From positions 230,702,001 to 230,766,000 of the forward strand of contig OZ024742.1 in NCBI GenBank assembly GCA_964016885.1: DNA of 64,000 bases, written 5' to 3'. The position numbers and the translations under genes are program-made. The DNA comes from Eledone cirrhosa. Its lineage: Eukaryota. Below are positions 5,225 through 58,266 of this stretch, piece after piece. The notes under the pieces were generated by a model. That model was not told the origin of the DNA. It saw only the letters and a program-made list of their open reading frames with translations, and ran no database searches. Within the stretch, counting starts at the first letter, position 1; every line of letters begins with the position of its first letter.

Positions 5225-5301
<77 letters not shown>

Positions 5302-5302
<1 letters not shown>

Positions 5303-5448
5303 GTAATCAATGTGAAGACTAAAATCCAAAGAGGGCTCGATAAGGATAAATATATCAAATATATAAGATATATATAAGATCTTTCAGAAGATCCCCGTAA
5401 GAGTGAAAGCAGCGATTATTTGCTTAAACTTTAATCTGTTATTTTAAT
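5302..5448. mobile_element. Hammerhead element family F (CAGAAGA core), internally inverted copy
   Basis: 5302-5370 is the reverse complement of the family 3' part (compare 27610-27670); 5382-5448 is the ribozyme-bearing part; flanked by (TA)n. Confidence 0.7.
5382..5430 (+). ncRNA. Type I hammerhead-like motif with variant core CAGAAGA
   Basis: ttt CAGAAGA tccccgtaagagt GAAA GCA gcgattatt TGC TT aaact; helix III GCA/TGC; triplet CUU. Confidence 0.55.
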
Positions 5449-5501
5449 ATATATATATATAATAATATATAAGATCAAAAGATGGTTAAAGGAGTTCCAT
5501 G

Positions 5502-5572
5502 TATTTTATTATGCGCATTTCAAAAACAAATATCATCATGCAATAACATTTGCATTTTCGTCAGATAAAATA
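5502..5572 (-). ncRNA. Type I hammerhead ribozyme (left arm of palindrome)
   Basis: Reverse complement of 5710-5780 with one substitution in helix II. Confidence 0.8.
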
Positions 5573-5709
5573 GGGAGACATGATATGAAGGTTAAAACAC
5601 ACTTGTGAATAGTGCAGTTTTAAATCAACATATGTTGATTTAAAACTGATATGTTGATTTAAAACTGCACTATTCACAAGTGTGTTTTAACCTTCATATC
5701 ATGTCTCCC

Positions 5710-5780
5710 TATTTTATCTGACGAAAACGCAAATGTTATTGCATGATGATATTTGTTTTTGAAATGCGCATAATAAAATA
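5710..5780 (+). ncRNA. Type I hammerhead ribozyme
   Basis: tattttat CTGACGA [aaacgcaaatgttat...atatttgttttt] GAAA TGCGCA TA ataaaata; 8-bp helix I, palindromic helix III, AUA triplet. Confidence 0.85.
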
Positions 5781-6329
5781 CATGGAACTCTTTTAACCAT
5801 CTTTTGATCTTATATATTATTATTTATACTCCAGTCCTACAAACTGTAGAGTGCTACTTATGCGATATCTGCATTGCTTTATTGTACTACAATAAAACTC
5901 ACCTCCTACATATACATATATATATACATATACATATATATATACATATATATACATATATATATGAATATTGGAAAATGTGTGAGATCCTTATATTTGA
6001 AAAGAAGGAAAACATTGACTTCACTTGTAGTGTTAAATAATTTGATTTCATTTTATAATATTATAATATTATGAGTTGGTAGATCTAGAAAGTTCTTTGT
6101 TAACTTCGGTGGGAAGAATTTTAAAGATTCCTCGTTAACTTTGTGGGAGAACTTTCTCGCATTCGTCGGGGGCGATTGTCAAACTGAGACCAGGTTGTGT
6201 TGTGATGTGTTGAGATATATAAGAGACATTTGGATGTGTCTGGGGTGTCGGGTGTGGGGCGTGGTGTTAATGAGTGTTGATGACGATTTGGAGGAATTAA
6301 AGCATACACACACACACACACATACACAT

Positions 6330-11594: not shown

Positions 11595-11779
11595 GGAGGT
11601 GGTAAAAACTAGTTGGTCCATTACTCACCAGAGTACTCGATACATGGGGTAGTAGAGCGGGTAATATGAAAAAACTCAGGATCCCGACAGCTGAACTCTG
11701 GCCGTTTCAACAGCTAGATCCGAGTTTGGATCTAACTGTTGAAACGGCCGAAGCTCAGCTGTCGGGATCCTGAGTTTTT
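11595..11779 (-). mobile_element. Hammerhead element family G, fold-back copy
   Basis: Imperfect palindrome 11670-11779 containing GAAA CGGC...GCTG TC gggatc; tail homologous to 28183-28260 and 39130-39205. Confidence 0.7.
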
Positions 11780-16355: not shown

Positions 16356-16613
16356 TATAATACAATATGTAGACAAGATAACACACTAGAGAGATAGTGC
16401 GCCATCAGTCAAACAGGGAAAAACCACCAGTGTATGGAATCTATAGCCTATGAAAAGCAGAGCAGACACACAATAATTAAAAGTATAAATTAAAGTGTAA
16501 ATACATACCTCGATAAATATCGAGGCTATAGATTCCATACACTGGTGGTTTTTCCCTGTTTGACTGATGGCGCACTATCTCTCTCTCTAGTGTGTTATCT
16601 TGTCTACATATTG

Positions 16614-16620
<7 letters not shown>
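16356..16620. repeat. Inverted repeat, ~95-bp arms, abutting (TA)n
   Basis: 16356-16449 is the reverse complement of 16523-16620 apart from a (TC) length difference. Confidence 0.85.
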
Positions 16621-16681
<61 letters not shown>

Positions 16682-16692
16682 TTATATATATA

Positions 16693-16907
16693 TAGAAGTG
16701 GCTACACAACAGTTAGTTCACCATACTTAGAACAATTGTTTCACCTTAGCGGGTCCTCAGCTGGTAATGGACCCGTTACGAGCTGAGGATCCGCTAAGGT
16801 GAATTGTTCTCGGTGTGGTGAACTAACTGTTGTGTAACCACTTCTACCTAACTCGTCCCATGGACTGAGTGCTCTACCACTACGGATATTACTTTCCAGT
16901 GTTCTAC

Positions 16908-16910
<3 letters not shown>
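16693..16910 (+). mobile_element. Hammerhead element family D, inverted copy with two ribozyme cores
   Basis: Arms 16693-16766 and 16776-16846; homologous to 35048-35203; flanked by (TA)n. Confidence 0.75.
16725..16766 (-). ncRNA. Minimal type I hammerhead
   Basis: accag CTGAGGA cccgctaaggt GAAA CAATTG TT ctaagt; palindromic helix III. The plus arm (16778-16814) has helix I cgag/ctcg but a 4-nt deletion after GAA. Confidence 0.7.
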
Positions 16911-16963
<53 letters not shown>

Positions 16964-17108
16964 CACAATAATCAAAACTATGTTCAAATCATTTTATTGT
17001 TGTCATCGGAGCACTAGCAAAGTTTTTCTTACTGGTAATAAGGCAGTAATGAGTTACTGACCTTTCCTGTTTATAGTTATATATAATTTATATATAACTA
17101 TAAATAAT

Positions 17109-17900: not shown

Positions 17901-18779
<879 letters not shown>

Positions 18780-21729: not shown

Positions 21730-22215
21730 TGGTTTCTTATATAGCACAAGCCAAGCAATTTTAGAAGGGAGGGAAATGTCAATTAAATCGACCCCAGTGC
21801 GTGACTGGTGCTTTATTTTATTGAACCCCGTAAGGTTGAAAGGCAAGGTTAACGTCGGCGGGATTTGAACTCATGACGTAAAGGGCCGTAACTCTATGTT
21901 GCAAAACATGGTGTCCGACCCTCTACCGATACTGACAATTCACCACCCTTGTAATAGAGAATAATAAAACATACGTAGGAATAGAAACTATTATAATGAT
22001 TTCTGATTTAAGCACAAGGTCAACAATTTCGAGGAGAGGGGAAAGTCGATTAAATCGAACCGAGTGTGTTACTGGTGCTTTATTTTATCGACCCCGTAAG
22101 AATGGAAGGGAAAGCTAAACTTGGCGGATTTGAGCTTAGAACGTAAAGAGTTGTAACTCTATGCTTCAAAGCATGTTGTCCGACGCACTGCTGATTCTGT
22201 CAATCCACCGCCCTT
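21730..22215 (-). mobile_element. Two consecutive copies of the abundant tRNA-SINE
   Basis: Each has gcacaag...tggtgctttatttta...accccgtaag...ggcgg(g)atttga; copies at ~21730-21950 and ~22000-22215. Confidence 0.8.
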
Positions 22216-22574
22216 ATAGAAACTGATATAATAACATAAACACATAAACAATAGTATAATGGATGAGGGACGAGGTAAATTATAGGGACGCTTTTAGATG
22301 TATAAAACAATTAGTGAGTCAAGAAATAAAAATGTATTTCAACTGCGTGACTGATGTCAGCCATGTATCCCAACTACCACTCGTCTGAAAAGGTAAAGTC
22401 CCATAAAAGATATTCTGATTCGTGTGGCTGTGGACGATATGATATGTGATTGTAAAGGTTGTTGATTTAATTAATTAATCAATTAATCTGTAAATTATTA
22501 TTAATGTTTGCGATTGCATTTCGATCGAAACGGACGTAGAAATTAATAAAATGACCATAAGCACTCCAACACTG

Positions 22575-22760
22575 ATTAGGTAGTTATATCGGTAGAGCGT
22601 CAGATACGATTTTTGCACCATAGAGTCATGGCCCTTTACATTCTGAGTCAAATCCCGCCGAGGTAAATATTGTCTTTCATCCTTACGGGGTCAATAAAAT
22701 AAAGCACTAGTAATGCACTGGGGTAATTGCTGGCCTTGTGCCAATGGTAGAAACAATTAT
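22575..22760 (+). mobile_element. Abundant tRNA-SINE copy
   Basis: caaatcccgccgagg...tttcatccttacggggtc...ggccttgtgcc. Confidence 0.75.
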
Positions 22761-27402: not shown

Positions 27403-27439
<37 letters not shown>

Positions 27440-27443
<4 letters not shown>

Positions 27444-27672
27444 TAAAATAACAGATTAAAGTTTAAGCATGGAATCACTGCTTTCACCCTTAACGGGATC
27501 TTCTGAAACTAACAAAGTCAATCTGTAAACGCAGAACCGTTAAGGGTGAAAGCAGCGATTCTTTGCTTAAACTTTAATCTGTTATCTTAATAAATATTTG
27601 CTCTACGGTTCTTATATATTTGATATATATTTATCCTTATCGAGCCCTCTTTGGATTTTAGTCTTCAAATTT
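27440..27672 (+). mobile_element. Hammerhead element family F, inverted copy
   Basis: Arms 27440-27496 and 27538-27594 are reverse complements; 3' tail shared with 48775-48890 and 5302-5370. Confidence 0.75.
27460..27510 (-). ncRNA. Type I hammerhead-like motif with variant core CAGAAGA
   Basis: agttt CAGAAGA tccc gttaa gggt GAAA GCA gtgattcca TGC TT aaact; helix I agttt/aaact intact. Confidence 0.65.
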
Positions 27673-27680
27673 ATTATTAT

Positions 27681-28184: not shown

Positions 28185-28369
28185 CAAAGGAAATGTTGTA
28201 AGGAAACAGATGGACCATAACGCACCAGAGTACTCAATGCTTAGGGTAGTAGAGTGGGAAATAGGAAAAAGTATGACCCCGACGGCAGAGCTCAAGCCGT
28301 TTCGACGGCTATTTCCAGAAATAGCCGTCGAAACGGCTTGAGCTCTGCCGTCGGGGTCATACTTTTTCC

Positions 28370-28372
<3 letters not shown>
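28183..28372 (-). mobile_element. Hammerhead element family G with perfect 55-bp fold-back
   Basis: 28261-28315 is the exact reverse complement of 28318-28372; contains GAAA CGGC ttgagctct GCCG TC ggggtc; inside (TA)n. Confidence 0.8.
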
Positions 28373-33298: not shown

Positions 33299-33337
<39 letters not shown>

Positions 33338-33697
33338 CTTTCACCGTATTTTTTACTAAAGACATTTTAGCCTGATAATGGGGTTTAGAATCCTCAGATA
33401 AATGAAAAAAGATGAGTATTGACGTACATGGGAGTCGAACCCACATCTTTGGTTAGCCAGATCACTGTGCTACCATTACACCATTTACTTGTCATTTATA
33501 CTCGCTAAGAATGTAGCTTCTAATTTGAATGGAAAGAGATGGGTCATGTGTTGGTGTAATGGTAGCACAGTGGTCTGGATAACCAGAGATGTGGGTTAGA
33601 CTCCCATGTACGTCAATACTCATCTCTTTCCATTTATCTGAGGGTTCTAAACCCCATTATCAGGCTAAACTTTCTTTAGTCAAAAATACGGTGAAAG
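33338..33697. mobile_element. Head-to-head inverted pair of a tRNA-headed element
   Basis: Arms 33338-33483 and 33552-33697; head tggtgtaatggtagcac...gggtt(c/a)gactccca has A and B boxes. Confidence 0.75.
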
Positions 33698-34749
33698 CTA
33701 TTCTATTTTCTAATTTCAAACCTGCTCACTGTTTTAAAACATACTTACTTGTCATATACATATGTGCATATATACTTATGCGTATGTATATGAGTGAAGA
33801 CACGGGATCCAGTGTTGGGGTGTTGGCTTGATAATCATATGTTCCTGGGTTCGATCTTACTCAGACCAAGCTACGCATTATGTGTTTAAGAAACTATAGT
33901 TTACGCTGCTCCAATCTACTCAGCTCAAAAAGCTTACGTTCCAACTGCAGCTAAAAGTATTCCTTGTGATGGACTGTCGTCCTATCCAGGAGATGTCTAA
34001 GGTCATCATTCACAATGGAGTATCACTTTTGCTAAGGATTTTAGGTGCTGAACCAGTCGGGAGCAGAAATAAACATCCTCTCTACCCTTAAGTTCCTCCT
34101 CTCTAGAGGTAGTGTAACACCAGAGATGTAAGATATAGTAGGAGAGAAGCCTGCGCCTACACAAGGTTGGTACTTTCTTTATCGCAAAGTCGAGCGCAAC
34201 AGGATTGGCATTCAGAGCACGGGATCCTGGATTAAAAATCCATTGAGCTTCTTAATCGATGCTCTGAAAATTCTTTATTGATCATTAGCCTTGCTGGGCT
34301 TTCTTAGCCTTATTTTTAGCTTAGATGTAACATTTTCATAATGTCTGCCGTAATATCTAACGCTCTAACGATTCTGCTAAATCTACCGTCTTTTAACACG
34401 TATAAGCAGGAAAGGTTACTTCTATTTCCATGTGATGTTATAGAATGAAGAGGAGCAAGAGAACAGCATGTTAAGTCTTTCTAATCTGTGGTTTATGCTT
34501 AAATAACTCCGATTTTTTTTCATGCCTTTATATTTCGAATCATGAGTTATGTTCCATTGTATGATCAGATAATTGGTTCCATCAGAACTGGAATCAACTA
34601 GTTCCTCTACTGCTCATGGTGAAAGTCAGGTTTACAGTATAATCAAAATACACAAAACATTTTTACAGGGTCATGTTCTTCGTCAACACAAACACATAAA
34701 TAGCAGCAGCAGCAACAGTTGCAGCAGCAGTGGCACTAGTAGTAGCAGC

Positions 34750-34997: not shown

Positions 34998-35047
34998 ATA
35001 TATATATATATAGTGGTAGTAGTAGTAGTAGTAGTAGTAGTAGTAAT

Positions 35048-35202
35048 ACAACAGTTAGTTCACCATACCGAGAACAATTTGTTCACCTTATGAAACAATT
35101 GTGCTCGGTATGGTGAACTAACTGTTGTGTTACTACTTCTACCAAACTCGTCCCATAGACTGAGTGTTCTACCACTACGGATATTACCTTCGAGGGTTCA
35201 AC

Positions 35203-39018: not shown

Positions 39019-39203
39019 ATAGGAAAAGAGTCAGGACCCTGACGGCTGAGCTACAGCCGTTTCGACAGCTAGGTCTGAACCGTTCAGACCTAGCTGTCGA
39101 AGCCGTCGGGGTCCTGACTCTTTTCCTATTACCCACTCTACTACCCAGTATAGAGTACTTTGGTGCTTTATGGTCCACCTGGTTACTTACCACACTTCCT
39201 TCG

Positions 39204-48774: not shown

Positions 48775-48952
48775 TTAAACTTTAATCTGTTATTTTAATA
48801 AATATTTGCTCTACGGTTCTTATATATTTTATATATATTTATCCTTATCGAGCCCTCTTTGGATTTTAGTCTTCAAATGTATTATTATTACTATATATAT
48901 ATAGTAATAATAATAAATGTGAAGACTAAAATCCAAAGAGGGCTCGATAAGG

Positions 48953-48965
<13 letters not shown>
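48775..48965 (+). mobile_element. Family F copy starting at the predicted cleavage site, with 3' fold-back across (TA)n
   Basis: Begins tt|aaactttaatctg; 48834-48892 is inverted at 48903-48965. Confidence 0.7.
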
Positions 48966-49019
<54 letters not shown>

Positions 49020-52597: not shown

Positions 52598-52900
52598 GAT
52601 TGGCAGTATCGTTAGAGATTCAGACACCATGCTTTGAAACATGGAGTTACGTCCCTTTATGAGCTGAGTTCAAATCCCGCCGAGGTTAACTTTGCCTTTC
52701 ATCTTTACGGGGTCGATAAAATAAAGTACCAGTAATGTACTGGGTAATTTGCTGGCCTTGTGCCTAATATAGAAACAATTATTTATATAATAATTGTTTC
52801 GTCTTTTGGCACAAGGCCAGCAATTATCCCAGTGTATTACTGGTACTCCTTGTGGCAAAGCATGGTGTCTGACCCTCTTCTGATACTGCCAATACACCGC
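52598..52900. mobile_element. Tail-to-tail pair of abundant tRNA-SINE copies
   Basis: Plus copy 52598-52780; minus, internally deleted copy 52790-52900. Confidence 0.75.
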
Positions 52901-53946: not shown

Positions 53947-54370
53947 TCACGTGTTTATACTTTCATTTATATATCAGCTGTCATGGGGCGAGAAATAAAA
54001 TTCTAATTTTATTTTTCAACAGACAGACACTCACACAAATACATATGTATAAATATGGAGGATATGCGTGGACAAATGGTCAAATGGAAAATGTTCAATG
54101 AGAGCTTATTTAGTTTATATTAAAGTTCATATATTTAACATGTGGTCGTGACCTTAAGTTTCGGGATCCAGGTATGGCTACTACAGTATAATTGAGCAGC
54201 GGTACAAAACTGACCTCTCTCGTCTGGCACAAGGTCACATTTTTGTCCTTCTGCTTTACGAGAAAGGTCAGTTTTGAACCACTAATCCACTATATAGTGG
54301 TAGCCATGATTGGACCACGTATACGTGTTAAATATATCTATCTATATATATATATATATATATATATGTG

Positions 54371-57864: not shown

Positions 57865-58160
57865 AATTGTTTCTACTTTAGGCACAAGGCCAGCAATTAC
57901 CCAGTGCATTACTGGTACTTTATTTTTTATCGACCCCGTAAGGATGAAAGGCAAAGTCAACCTCGGCGGGATATATATGTAATGGTTTCTCATTAGGCAC
58001 AAGGCCAACAATTTGGGGAAAGGGTAAAGTCGATTAAATCGACCCAGTCCGTTACTGGTACTTTATTTCATCGACCCCCGTAAGAATGAAAATTAAAGCT
58101 AACCTCGGCGGGATTTGAACTCAGAACGTAAAGGGCCACAACTCTATACTGCAAAGCATG

Positions 58161-58162
<2 letters not shown>
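57865..58162 (-). mobile_element. Two partial tRNA-SINE copies
   Basis: 57865-57972 and 57980-58162. Confidence 0.75.
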
Positions 58163-58202
<40 letters not shown>

Positions 58203-58229
58203 CATGCTTTGCAGTATAGAGTTGTGGCC

Positions 58230-58266
<37 letters not shown>

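What the first reader, a model, noticed from the sequence alone, without database searches (positions are those of the whole stretch)
5461..5824. Large fold-back palindrome placing a hammerhead on both strands
Arms of ~170 bp differ at only two positions and each carries a full hammerhead (8-bp helix I, AUGCGCAU helix III). The centre is itself palindromic (aatcaacatatgttgatt) with a ~19-bp tandem duplication, the signature expected of hairpin-primed fold-back synthesis. A read-through transcript would form long dsRNA that sequesters the ribozyme. The two mismatches argue for a real insertion over a chimeric read (inference).
Basis: partly seen in the sequence, partly recalled or inferred. Interest (0 to 1): 0.7.

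Follow-up and report, generated by a model that had tools for sequence, protein, structure and literature searches.

The report
Head-to-head Penelope retrotransposon stub
This mirror-image DNA is two short end pieces of a very abundant Penelope-like jumping gene, joined head to head inside a TA repeat, which is a known way for this class to insert; its sister copies suggest the two halves were likely copied separately up to the RNA's predicted capped start rather than by one strand folding back on itself.

Summary
The palindrome is real: 175-bp arms (5459-5633 / 5649-5823), two mismatches, a 19-bp central duplication, and a type I hammerhead motif in each arm. It is not unique. The right arm plus 5829-5907 is the pseudo-LTR (pLTR) and 'tail' of a Hydra-clade Penelope-like element with about 11,000 exact-match arms in this genome; the left arm is the inverted, tail-less pLTR. 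Inverted pLTRs, one-sided tails, palindromic junctions and hammerheads in pLTRs are all published.

Simple hairpin fold-back fits poorly. All 67 of 67 head-to-head sister loci carry exactly one tail, and in 3 the two arms do not overlap at all. Arms break sharply at window 5649: a non-native base precedes it in 4,262 of 11,147 arms, against 201 of 12,347 at a control site. G is the commonest non-native base, as expected for a copied cap. Best model: two target-primed cDNAs run off a capped RNA 5' end and are then joined. No RNA or long-read test was possible. The scan has reported this architecture and this reading on other DNA of this genome.

The parts
5447..5460 (.). Left (TA)n target tract; the exact arm end is blurred by TA microhomology, no target-site duplication can be read
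5454..5633 (-). Inverted pLTR without tail (element positions 0 to about +179, position 0 at 5633)
   Evidence: L001 left arm 0-179
5502..5572 (-). Type I hammerhead motif of the inverted arm, pointing outward
   Evidence: hit 5498-5576 includes 4 flanking bases each side
5615..5648 (.). 34-bp perfect palindrome centred on ATAT (5630-5633)
   Evidence: sequence
5630..5648 (+). 19-bp duplication of element positions 0 to +18, ending in G; junction insert
   Evidence: D6; the same 37-mer junction in 13 of the first 100 of 152 rows
5648..5649 (+). G at -1 followed by position 0: family-wide 5' breakpoint, inferred capped RNA start (native base at -1 is C)
5649..5828 (+). Sense pLTR (0 to +179) of a Hydra-clade Penelope-like element
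5710..5780 (+). Type I hammerhead motif; predicted cut after 5772 (+123); palindromic helix III AUGCGCAU at 5764-5771
5829..5907 (+). 79-nt tail (+180 to +258), equal to the start of the element body upstream of the ORF; present on one arm only
   Evidence: (L086, L090, L092, L095, L096 continue from the tail into the body)
5908..5966 (.). Right (TA)n/(TACA)n target tract

Best explanation
The palindrome is a short head-to-head insertion of a Hydra-clade Penelope-like retrotransposon (inverted pLTR, pLTR and tail, in a TA repeat), likely made when both ends of a cut in the TA repeat primed reverse transcription and both copies ran to the RNA's predicted capped start. Shown: identity with the 3' pLTR of RT + GIY-YIG elements, two fixed outer ends (+179, +258), one tail per insertion, a sharp inner breakpoint at position 0, and excess G at -1. 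Inferred: (1) the element's endonuclease cuts both strands of (TA)n; (2) one 3'-OH primes at +258 and the other at about +179, most likely on the same RNA or on RNAs of one source locus; (3) RT runs off the 5' end at position 0, often adding a C opposite the cap; (4) the two cDNA 3' ends are joined through the self-complementary ATAT or other microhomology. At this locus the left cDNA would have annealed through ATAT, copied 15 nt to G(+18), slipped, and re-paired that G with the cap-derived C, which gives the 19-bp duplication. The two hammerheads are passengers of the pLTR; each is likely weak as a monomer and would be buried in any read-through RNA.
For: Identity: longer copies carry an ORF with DKT, YRDDG, CNCPVKNKC (CxCX5C), a GIY-YIG-like LIYECKV...YFG stretch, CNLC and LCLH directly upstream of this pLTR, the Hydra diagnostics of PMC8557442 section 11. 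Abundance: 11,147 exact 22-mer arms (sum); 1,920 candidates for an RT stretch. One tail: 67 of 67 head-to-head loci, from 120 loci examined. Separate priming: in L108, L115 and L127 the tailed arm covers only +183, +207 or +221 to about +258 while the other arm covers 0-179 and starts with G, the geometry of L1 twin priming (PMC11702581). Both +179 and +258 are also ends of long single copies (18 and 10 of 30 arms). Breakpoint: non-C before position 0 in 4,262 of 11,147 arms (38%) against non-C at internal +16 in 201 of 12,347 (1.6%); in 30 arms picked by the hammerhead only, 15 start within 5 nt of 0 by script, 14 after removing L148 on inspection. Cap mark: G 2,111, T 1,581, A 570 at -1; control site G 31, T 42, A 27 in the first 100 rows (hand count). 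An extra 5' G marks capped full-length L1 insertions. In vitro, an anole PLE cuts and extends both strands, prefers AT-rich DNA, starts at two internal RNA sites that bound the tail, and is predicted to be a dimer (PMC11167929). Same template: arms of one locus differ by 0.017 against 0.055 between loci; 48 of 55 loci show no difference at common variant sites.
Against: No RNA evidence for a start at position 0. None of 8 upstream direct pLTRs of long copies starts at 0 (starts -1567, -892, -225, -157, -31, -29, -17, +116), although a full copy of an RNA capped at 0 should; this is unexplained. Of 30 sampled G(-1) arms, 10 have a G that the partner arm's own sequence could supply, 11 do not, and 9 could not be classed; the control site also shows many G, probably because G there completes a GTGCAC palindrome. 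The near-identity of the two arms fits fold-back copying or later gene conversion equally well. Position 0 is itself a self-complementary, TA-like site (CATATG), which could attract junctions without being an RNA end. Copying the same 0-179 segment twice from one RNA needs strand displacement, which is not shown for this enzyme. This locus differs between arms at +142, a common family variant.
Confidence: 0.62

Rival explanations
1. Fold-back or self-priming (first reader; published for PLEs): one cDNA, or an antisense template, snaps back at the palindromic CATATG, copies itself, and joins the other target end by TA microhomology at +170 to +179.
For: Perfect palindromes centred on ATAT are a common junction (many pairs 17 bases apart; gap -4 loci). 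Arms of one locus are nearly identical. Arkhipova et al. 2013 read such junctions as self-priming. The +170 to +179 segment is TA-rich.
Against: Arms that do not overlap, or a tail-less arm reaching further 5' than the tailed one (L108, L115, L127, L113, L152, L029, L143, L154), cannot be copies of the tailed cDNA without later deletions. +179 is also the end of single long copies. Both arms carry G(-1) in L027, L030, L107, L111, L130. An ATAT snap-back needs a loop of 2 nt or less (inference).
Confidence: 0.2
2. Twin priming is right, but position 0 is not an RNA start: it is a pause or microhomology hotspot (CATATG, just downstream of a long pyrimidine tract) on longer RNAs, and the G comes from end-joining.
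For: CATATG is self-complementary and TA-like. 0 of 8 upstream pLTRs of long copies start at 0. 10 of 30 G(-1) bases can come from the partner arm. A second, smaller cluster of 5' ends lies at the other palindrome, helix III, +109 to +116 (L006, L036, L046, L090, L095).
Against: The break is at one base, and G outnumbers A 3.7-fold there against about 1.1-fold at the control. 11 of 30 G are not supplied by the partner arm.
Confidence: 0.12
3. A ready-made palindromic master element (MITE-like, non-autonomous) is copied as one unit, and the varied centres arise later from cruciform breakage.
For: The window's exact 19-bp junction recurs at 13 of the first 100 rows (11 after merging three tandem-duplicated places on C2). 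Many loci share the same outer ends.
Against: Junctions are very diverse. Palindromes occur in at least two subfamilies with both arms matching the local subfamily. Private changes can be shared by both arms (L021). Long inverted arms occur on ORF-bearing copies too.
Confidence: 0.04
4. Assembly or library artefact (chimeric fold-back read).
For: No record spans this locus in the four runs laid; palindromes are hard to assemble.
Against: Asymmetric ends (tail on one arm only) at element-defined positions, two arm differences, and 67 loci with the same rule. An artefact would mirror the tail and the flank.
Confidence: 0.02

Closest known systems
Hydra clade of Penelope-like elements (Craig et al. 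2021, PMC8557442), e.g. Hydra-1_Obim
   Same: C-terminal GIY-YIG-like EN, DKT, CxCX5C linker, CxxC and CxH, (TA)n target, hammerhead in the pLTR. By eye, the printed Hydra-1_Obim protein shares SDKTNNLY, KFIQFDI, YRDD and the RW motif with our ORF.
   Different: A different family: its listed hammerhead differs and it is noted as having no pLTR. Our RWK is RWI, the tail is 79 nt rather than 30-40, and the ORF has an N-rich stretch of about 50 aa absent from homologue P0002.
PLE insertions with inverted 5'-truncated copy, one-sided tail and palindromic junction (Adineta Pen2a/Pen2/Pen3a, PMC3846280; Fig. 2 legend of PMC8557442)
   Same: Head-to-head inverted pLTR, tail at one end, palindrome at the junction.
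   Different: Here the whole insertion is a 454-bp stub without ORF. The paper reads the junctions as self-priming on a possibly antisense template; my data favour two primed cDNAs and a cap mark.
Poseidon element of Anolis in vitro (Frangieh et al. 2024, PMC11167929)
   Same: Two internal RT start sites bounding the tail, AT-rich target, both strands cut and extended, hammerhead not needed for insertion.
   Different: Other clade. The two parts of four that I read do not model inverted copies or 5' junctions.
L1 twin priming and cap-derived extra G (passages of PMC11702581)
   Same: Second target end primes on the RNA, inverted segment, microhomology junction, extra G at complete 5' ends.
   Different: In L1 the two segments barely overlap and the second site is random; here it is fixed and the arms usually overlap fully.
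Metazoan PLE hammerheads and non-LTR retrozymes (PMC4209133; bioRxiv 2026.07.22.740005)
   Same: Type I motif with short palindromic helix III, expected to work as a dimer and weakly.
   Different: Retrozymes are head-to-tail tandems with both ribozymes on one strand; here they are on opposite strands and cannot form an intramolecular dimer.

Membership tests
Penelope-like element (EN+) | Single ORF with RT and C-terminal GIY-YIG endonuclease upstream of the pLTR | tested here: met
   ORFs in L032, L086, L090 adjoining this pLTR. Motifs read by eye; Pfam gave no significant hit on the 595-aa piece. The window copy itself has no ORF.
Penelope-like element (EN+) | pLTRs from partial tandems, direct or inverted | tested here: met
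   8 of 20 long loci have an upstream direct pLTR; several have inverted ones
Penelope-like element (EN+) | Tail at one end, equal to the start of the element body | tested here: met
   67 of 67 loci; continuation into the body; 79 nt, longer than the 30-40 described
Penelope-like element (EN+) | Hammerhead motif in the pLTR | tested here: met
   (motif only)
Hydra clade | DKG changed to DKT | tested here: met
   HSDKTNNLY
Hydra clade | CxCX5C linker; CxxC and CxH around the EN E and N | tested here: met
   CNCPVKNKC, CNLC, LCLH
Hydra clade | RWK motif | tested here: inconclusive
   RRLRWI at the matching place
Hydra clade | Insertion into (TA)n | tested here: met
   flanks
Hydra clade | Placement in the clade by RT phylogeny | not tested
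   reference sequences were seen only as paper text
Active hammerhead ribozyme | Self-cleavage at 5772 | not testable with these tools
   Core intact; monomer fold unfavourable, intermolecular 8-bp helix III predicted
Non-LTR retrozyme | Head-to-tail tandem of hammerhead-bearing units | tested here: not met
   arms are head to head
MITE / DNA transposon | Symmetric terminal inverted repeats and a fixed TSD | tested here: not met
   ends are asymmetric (tail) and are RT-element 3' ends; no TSD readable in (TA)n

The most novel reading that the evidence does not exclude
Penelope-like elements build their hallmark inverted ends by programmed twin priming: one RNP extends both ends of a cut from two fixed RNA sites and copies the same capped leader twice. 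This leaves thousands of cap-marked palindromic stubs, and the joint is finished by reiterative G-to-cap-C realignment reminiscent of telomerase repeat addition (ATATGTTG-like units stacked at L120). The genome would then record the element's start site and insertion chemistry at single-base resolution.
Probability: 0.5. Interest if true: 0.55.

Novelty: new member of a known kind. Interest (0 to 1): 0.3.

Why it matters
The locus is ordinary: one of thousands of stubs of a known retrotransposon class, with a published architecture. The family statistics matter more. How PLEs form tandem and inverted ends is named as an open problem (PMC8557442), and the one printed reading I found is self-priming (PMC3846280). 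The one-tail rule, non-overlapping arm pairs and the one-base breakpoint with excess G make a twin-priming, capped-start model directly testable in the existing in vitro system. My searches found no paper applying twin priming or a cap mark to PLEs, but older PLE papers outside the library were not seen. Thousands of such hairpins could also feed dsRNA pathways if transcribed (untested).

Tried and rejected
Rfam: no hammerhead match at gathering score. Pfam and PDB on the 595-aa ORF piece: nothing significant; the homologue search gave 21 proteins, 20 without a name. Sequencing runs: no RNA holder listed, which is no evidence on expression. Four runs laid on 5300-5960 gave only short, multi-copy pieces, none spanning the locus, so neither the junction nor editing could be checked. 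Hammerhead cleavage as the cause of the fold point: rejected, since the predicted cut is at +123 and the fold is at 0. The first genome search was biased towards arms starting at the junction, so frequencies come and whole-genome pattern counts. Look-up of earlier notes by sequence found nothing. Pattern counts are exact-match arms, not insertions: a palindrome counts twice and diverged copies are missed.

Full report
OBSERVATION. The inverted repeat is there: 5454-5633 / 5649-5828, 98% complementary. Mismatches are at 5458/5824, 5491/5791 and 5554/5728, so the core arms are 175 bp with two differences. The 19-bp duplication is 5630-5648 / 5649-5667. Each arm holds a type I hammerhead motif pointing outward. 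Helix I has 8 bp and the core is intact. Helix II opens with three A-U pairs and helix III has 2 bp plus a palindromic GCGC loop. The catalytic fold scores -6.7 against -11.3 kcal/mol for the best fold, and two molecules can pair AUGCGCAU over 8 bp. This is the usual dimer-type, weak metazoan PLE hammerhead (passages of PMC4209133). A read-through RNA folds into a -292 kcal/mol hairpin that buries its one sense ribozyme.

WHAT IT IS. The right arm has 589 first-look candidates in the genome, many with the same head-to-head partner on other contigs. [quoted passage not shown] Its motifs DKT, YRDDG, CNCPVKNKC, CNLC and LCLH and its (TA)n target match the Hydra clade (PMC8557442 section 11). By eye it resembles the printed Hydra-1_Obim protein but is another family (supplement hits). 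With position 0 at window 5649, the pLTR is 0 to +179 and 5829-5907 is a tail to +258; in full-length copies the tail runs straight into the element body. The window insertion is therefore (TA)n, inverted pLTR, pLTR, tail, (TA)n. Inverted 5'-truncated copies and one-sided tails are described for PLEs (passages), as are palindromes at head-to-head junctions, read as self-priming (passages of PMC3846280). Earlier scan notes call this genome an octopus; I did not check that.

OUTER ENDS. From 120 loci (L001-030, L035-064, L105-164) a script kept 67 distinct head-to-head pairs, requiring both arms to reach +150 and the 5' ends to lie within -45 to +60 bases. All 67 have exactly one tailed arm. Both ends also close single and long copies: 18 of 30 hammerhead-picked arms end near +179, 10 near +258. 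This matches the two internal RT start sites that bound the tail in vitro, where both target strands are cut and extended (PMC11167929, parts 1-2 of 4). In L108, L115 and L127 the tailed arm covers only +183, +207 or +221 onward, and the other arm covers 0-179. A fold-back copy of the tailed cDNA cannot contain sequence that the cDNA lacks, whereas twin priming gives this directly (passages of PMC11702581). Later deletion is the alternative, but it would have to spare the partner's first base each time.

INNER END. Whole-genome exact counts of the base before the 22-mer at position 0 are C 6,885 (4,356 with the native TTTTC), G 2,111, T 1,581 and A 570. Non-native bases make up 38%, against 1.6% (201 of 12,347) at an internal C, +16. 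G:A is 3.7 at -1 and about 1.1 in the first 100 control rows (hand count). The 30 G arms sampled have varied upstream contexts and none is a native variant. The G could come from the partner arm in 10, could not in 11, and 9 were unclassed; L111 and L112 are one insertion. An extra G marks capped complete 5' ends in L1, and TTTTC-A resembles a pyrimidine-A initiator (recalled, not tested). Against a simple start at 0: none of 8 upstream direct pLTRs in 20 RT-picked loci begins there, and no RNA data were available.

THE JUNCTION HERE. The top strand reads inverted arm to ATAT, then element +4 to +18, then position 0 again. The insert ends at G(+18), so the right arm is preceded by G. The same 37-mer occurs in 13 of the first 100 of 152 duplication-type junctions listed, 11 after merging a tandem trio (hand count). 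Other loci restart after G(+4) or G(+7). Inferred path: annealing of the two cDNA ends through ATAT, short extension, slippage, and re-pairing of a G with the cap-derived C. Whether the RT or a host end-joining polymerase does this is not known.

ONE TEMPLATE OR TWO. In 55 loci with at least 100 shared positions the arms differ by 0.017 on average against 0.055 between loci (5,918 pairs), and 48 show no difference at common variant sites. Both arms thus usually derive from one source, which fits one RNA copied twice, two RNAs of one locus, fold-back, or gene conversion. L017 has three linked subfamily differences. The window's +142 difference is a common family variant; its +79 difference lies in a CpG.

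REALITY. No laid record spans the locus, so this copy is unverified by reads. An artefact would mirror tail and flank; the family-wide asymmetry argues against it.

NOVELTY. Architecture, class and ribozyme are known; the family appears to be a further Hydra member. Searches for Penelope with twin priming and with pLTR, transcription start and cap listed no paper making this model; I saw only the listings there. Older PLE papers and bioRxiv supplements were not seen and may bear on it. Of the retrozyme preprint I read part 1 of 5. Earlier notes of this scan reached the same reading on other DNA of this genome; I saw them before running the cap and tail counts, and they are not independent support.

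VERDICT. Real, a new member of a known kind, interest 0.3. The mechanism is a testable inference at about 0.6.

Noticed in passing
window 11670-11779, 16356-16620, 16609-16970, 22060-22722, 27436-27597, 28261-28372, 35034-35142, 39019-39129, 48821-48975, 52725-52847, 54174-54307, 58129-58234: Further palindromes or inverted pairs of unrelated sequence, several next to (TA)n; probably stubs of other TA-targeting elements.
   Followed up: no
window 33334-33701: Palindrome (84%) whose arms each hold a tRNA-like motif (Rfam tRNA at 33545-33615 + and 33428-33483 -): a head-to-head tRNA-derived element next to (TA)n.
   Followed up: no
window 18185-18276 (-): Second hammerhead motif, unrelated sequence, palindromic helix III region ACCATGGT.
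   Followed up: no
window 5300-5450: The left flank is a piece of another short repeat family, with copies at 27417-27680 and 48775-48986 that are themselves partly palindromic; the insertion is nested among TA-targeting elements.
   Followed up: partly
L120 (about 1470-1520, oriented): Several ATATGTTG-like units stacked at the junction, like reiterative copying of a template end.
   Followed up: no
L006, L036, L046, L090, L095: Second small cluster of 5' ends at +109 to +116, at the palindromic helix III and short of the predicted cut at +123.
   Followed up: partly
L086 about 2586-2620: Just downstream of the tail a CGGTTGAGCGCT motif resembles, by eye, the 5' region of Hydra-1_Obim; a possible RT-binding signal.
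   Followed up: no
L086 ORF, residues about 590-660: Asparagine-rich stretch between RT thumb and EN, absent from homologue P0002; N-rich inserts are described for Adineta PLEs.
   Followed up: no
window 5991-6167 and L006 1175-1348: Both insertions have the same repeat (88%) at a similar distance beyond the tail, on different contigs.
   Followed up: no
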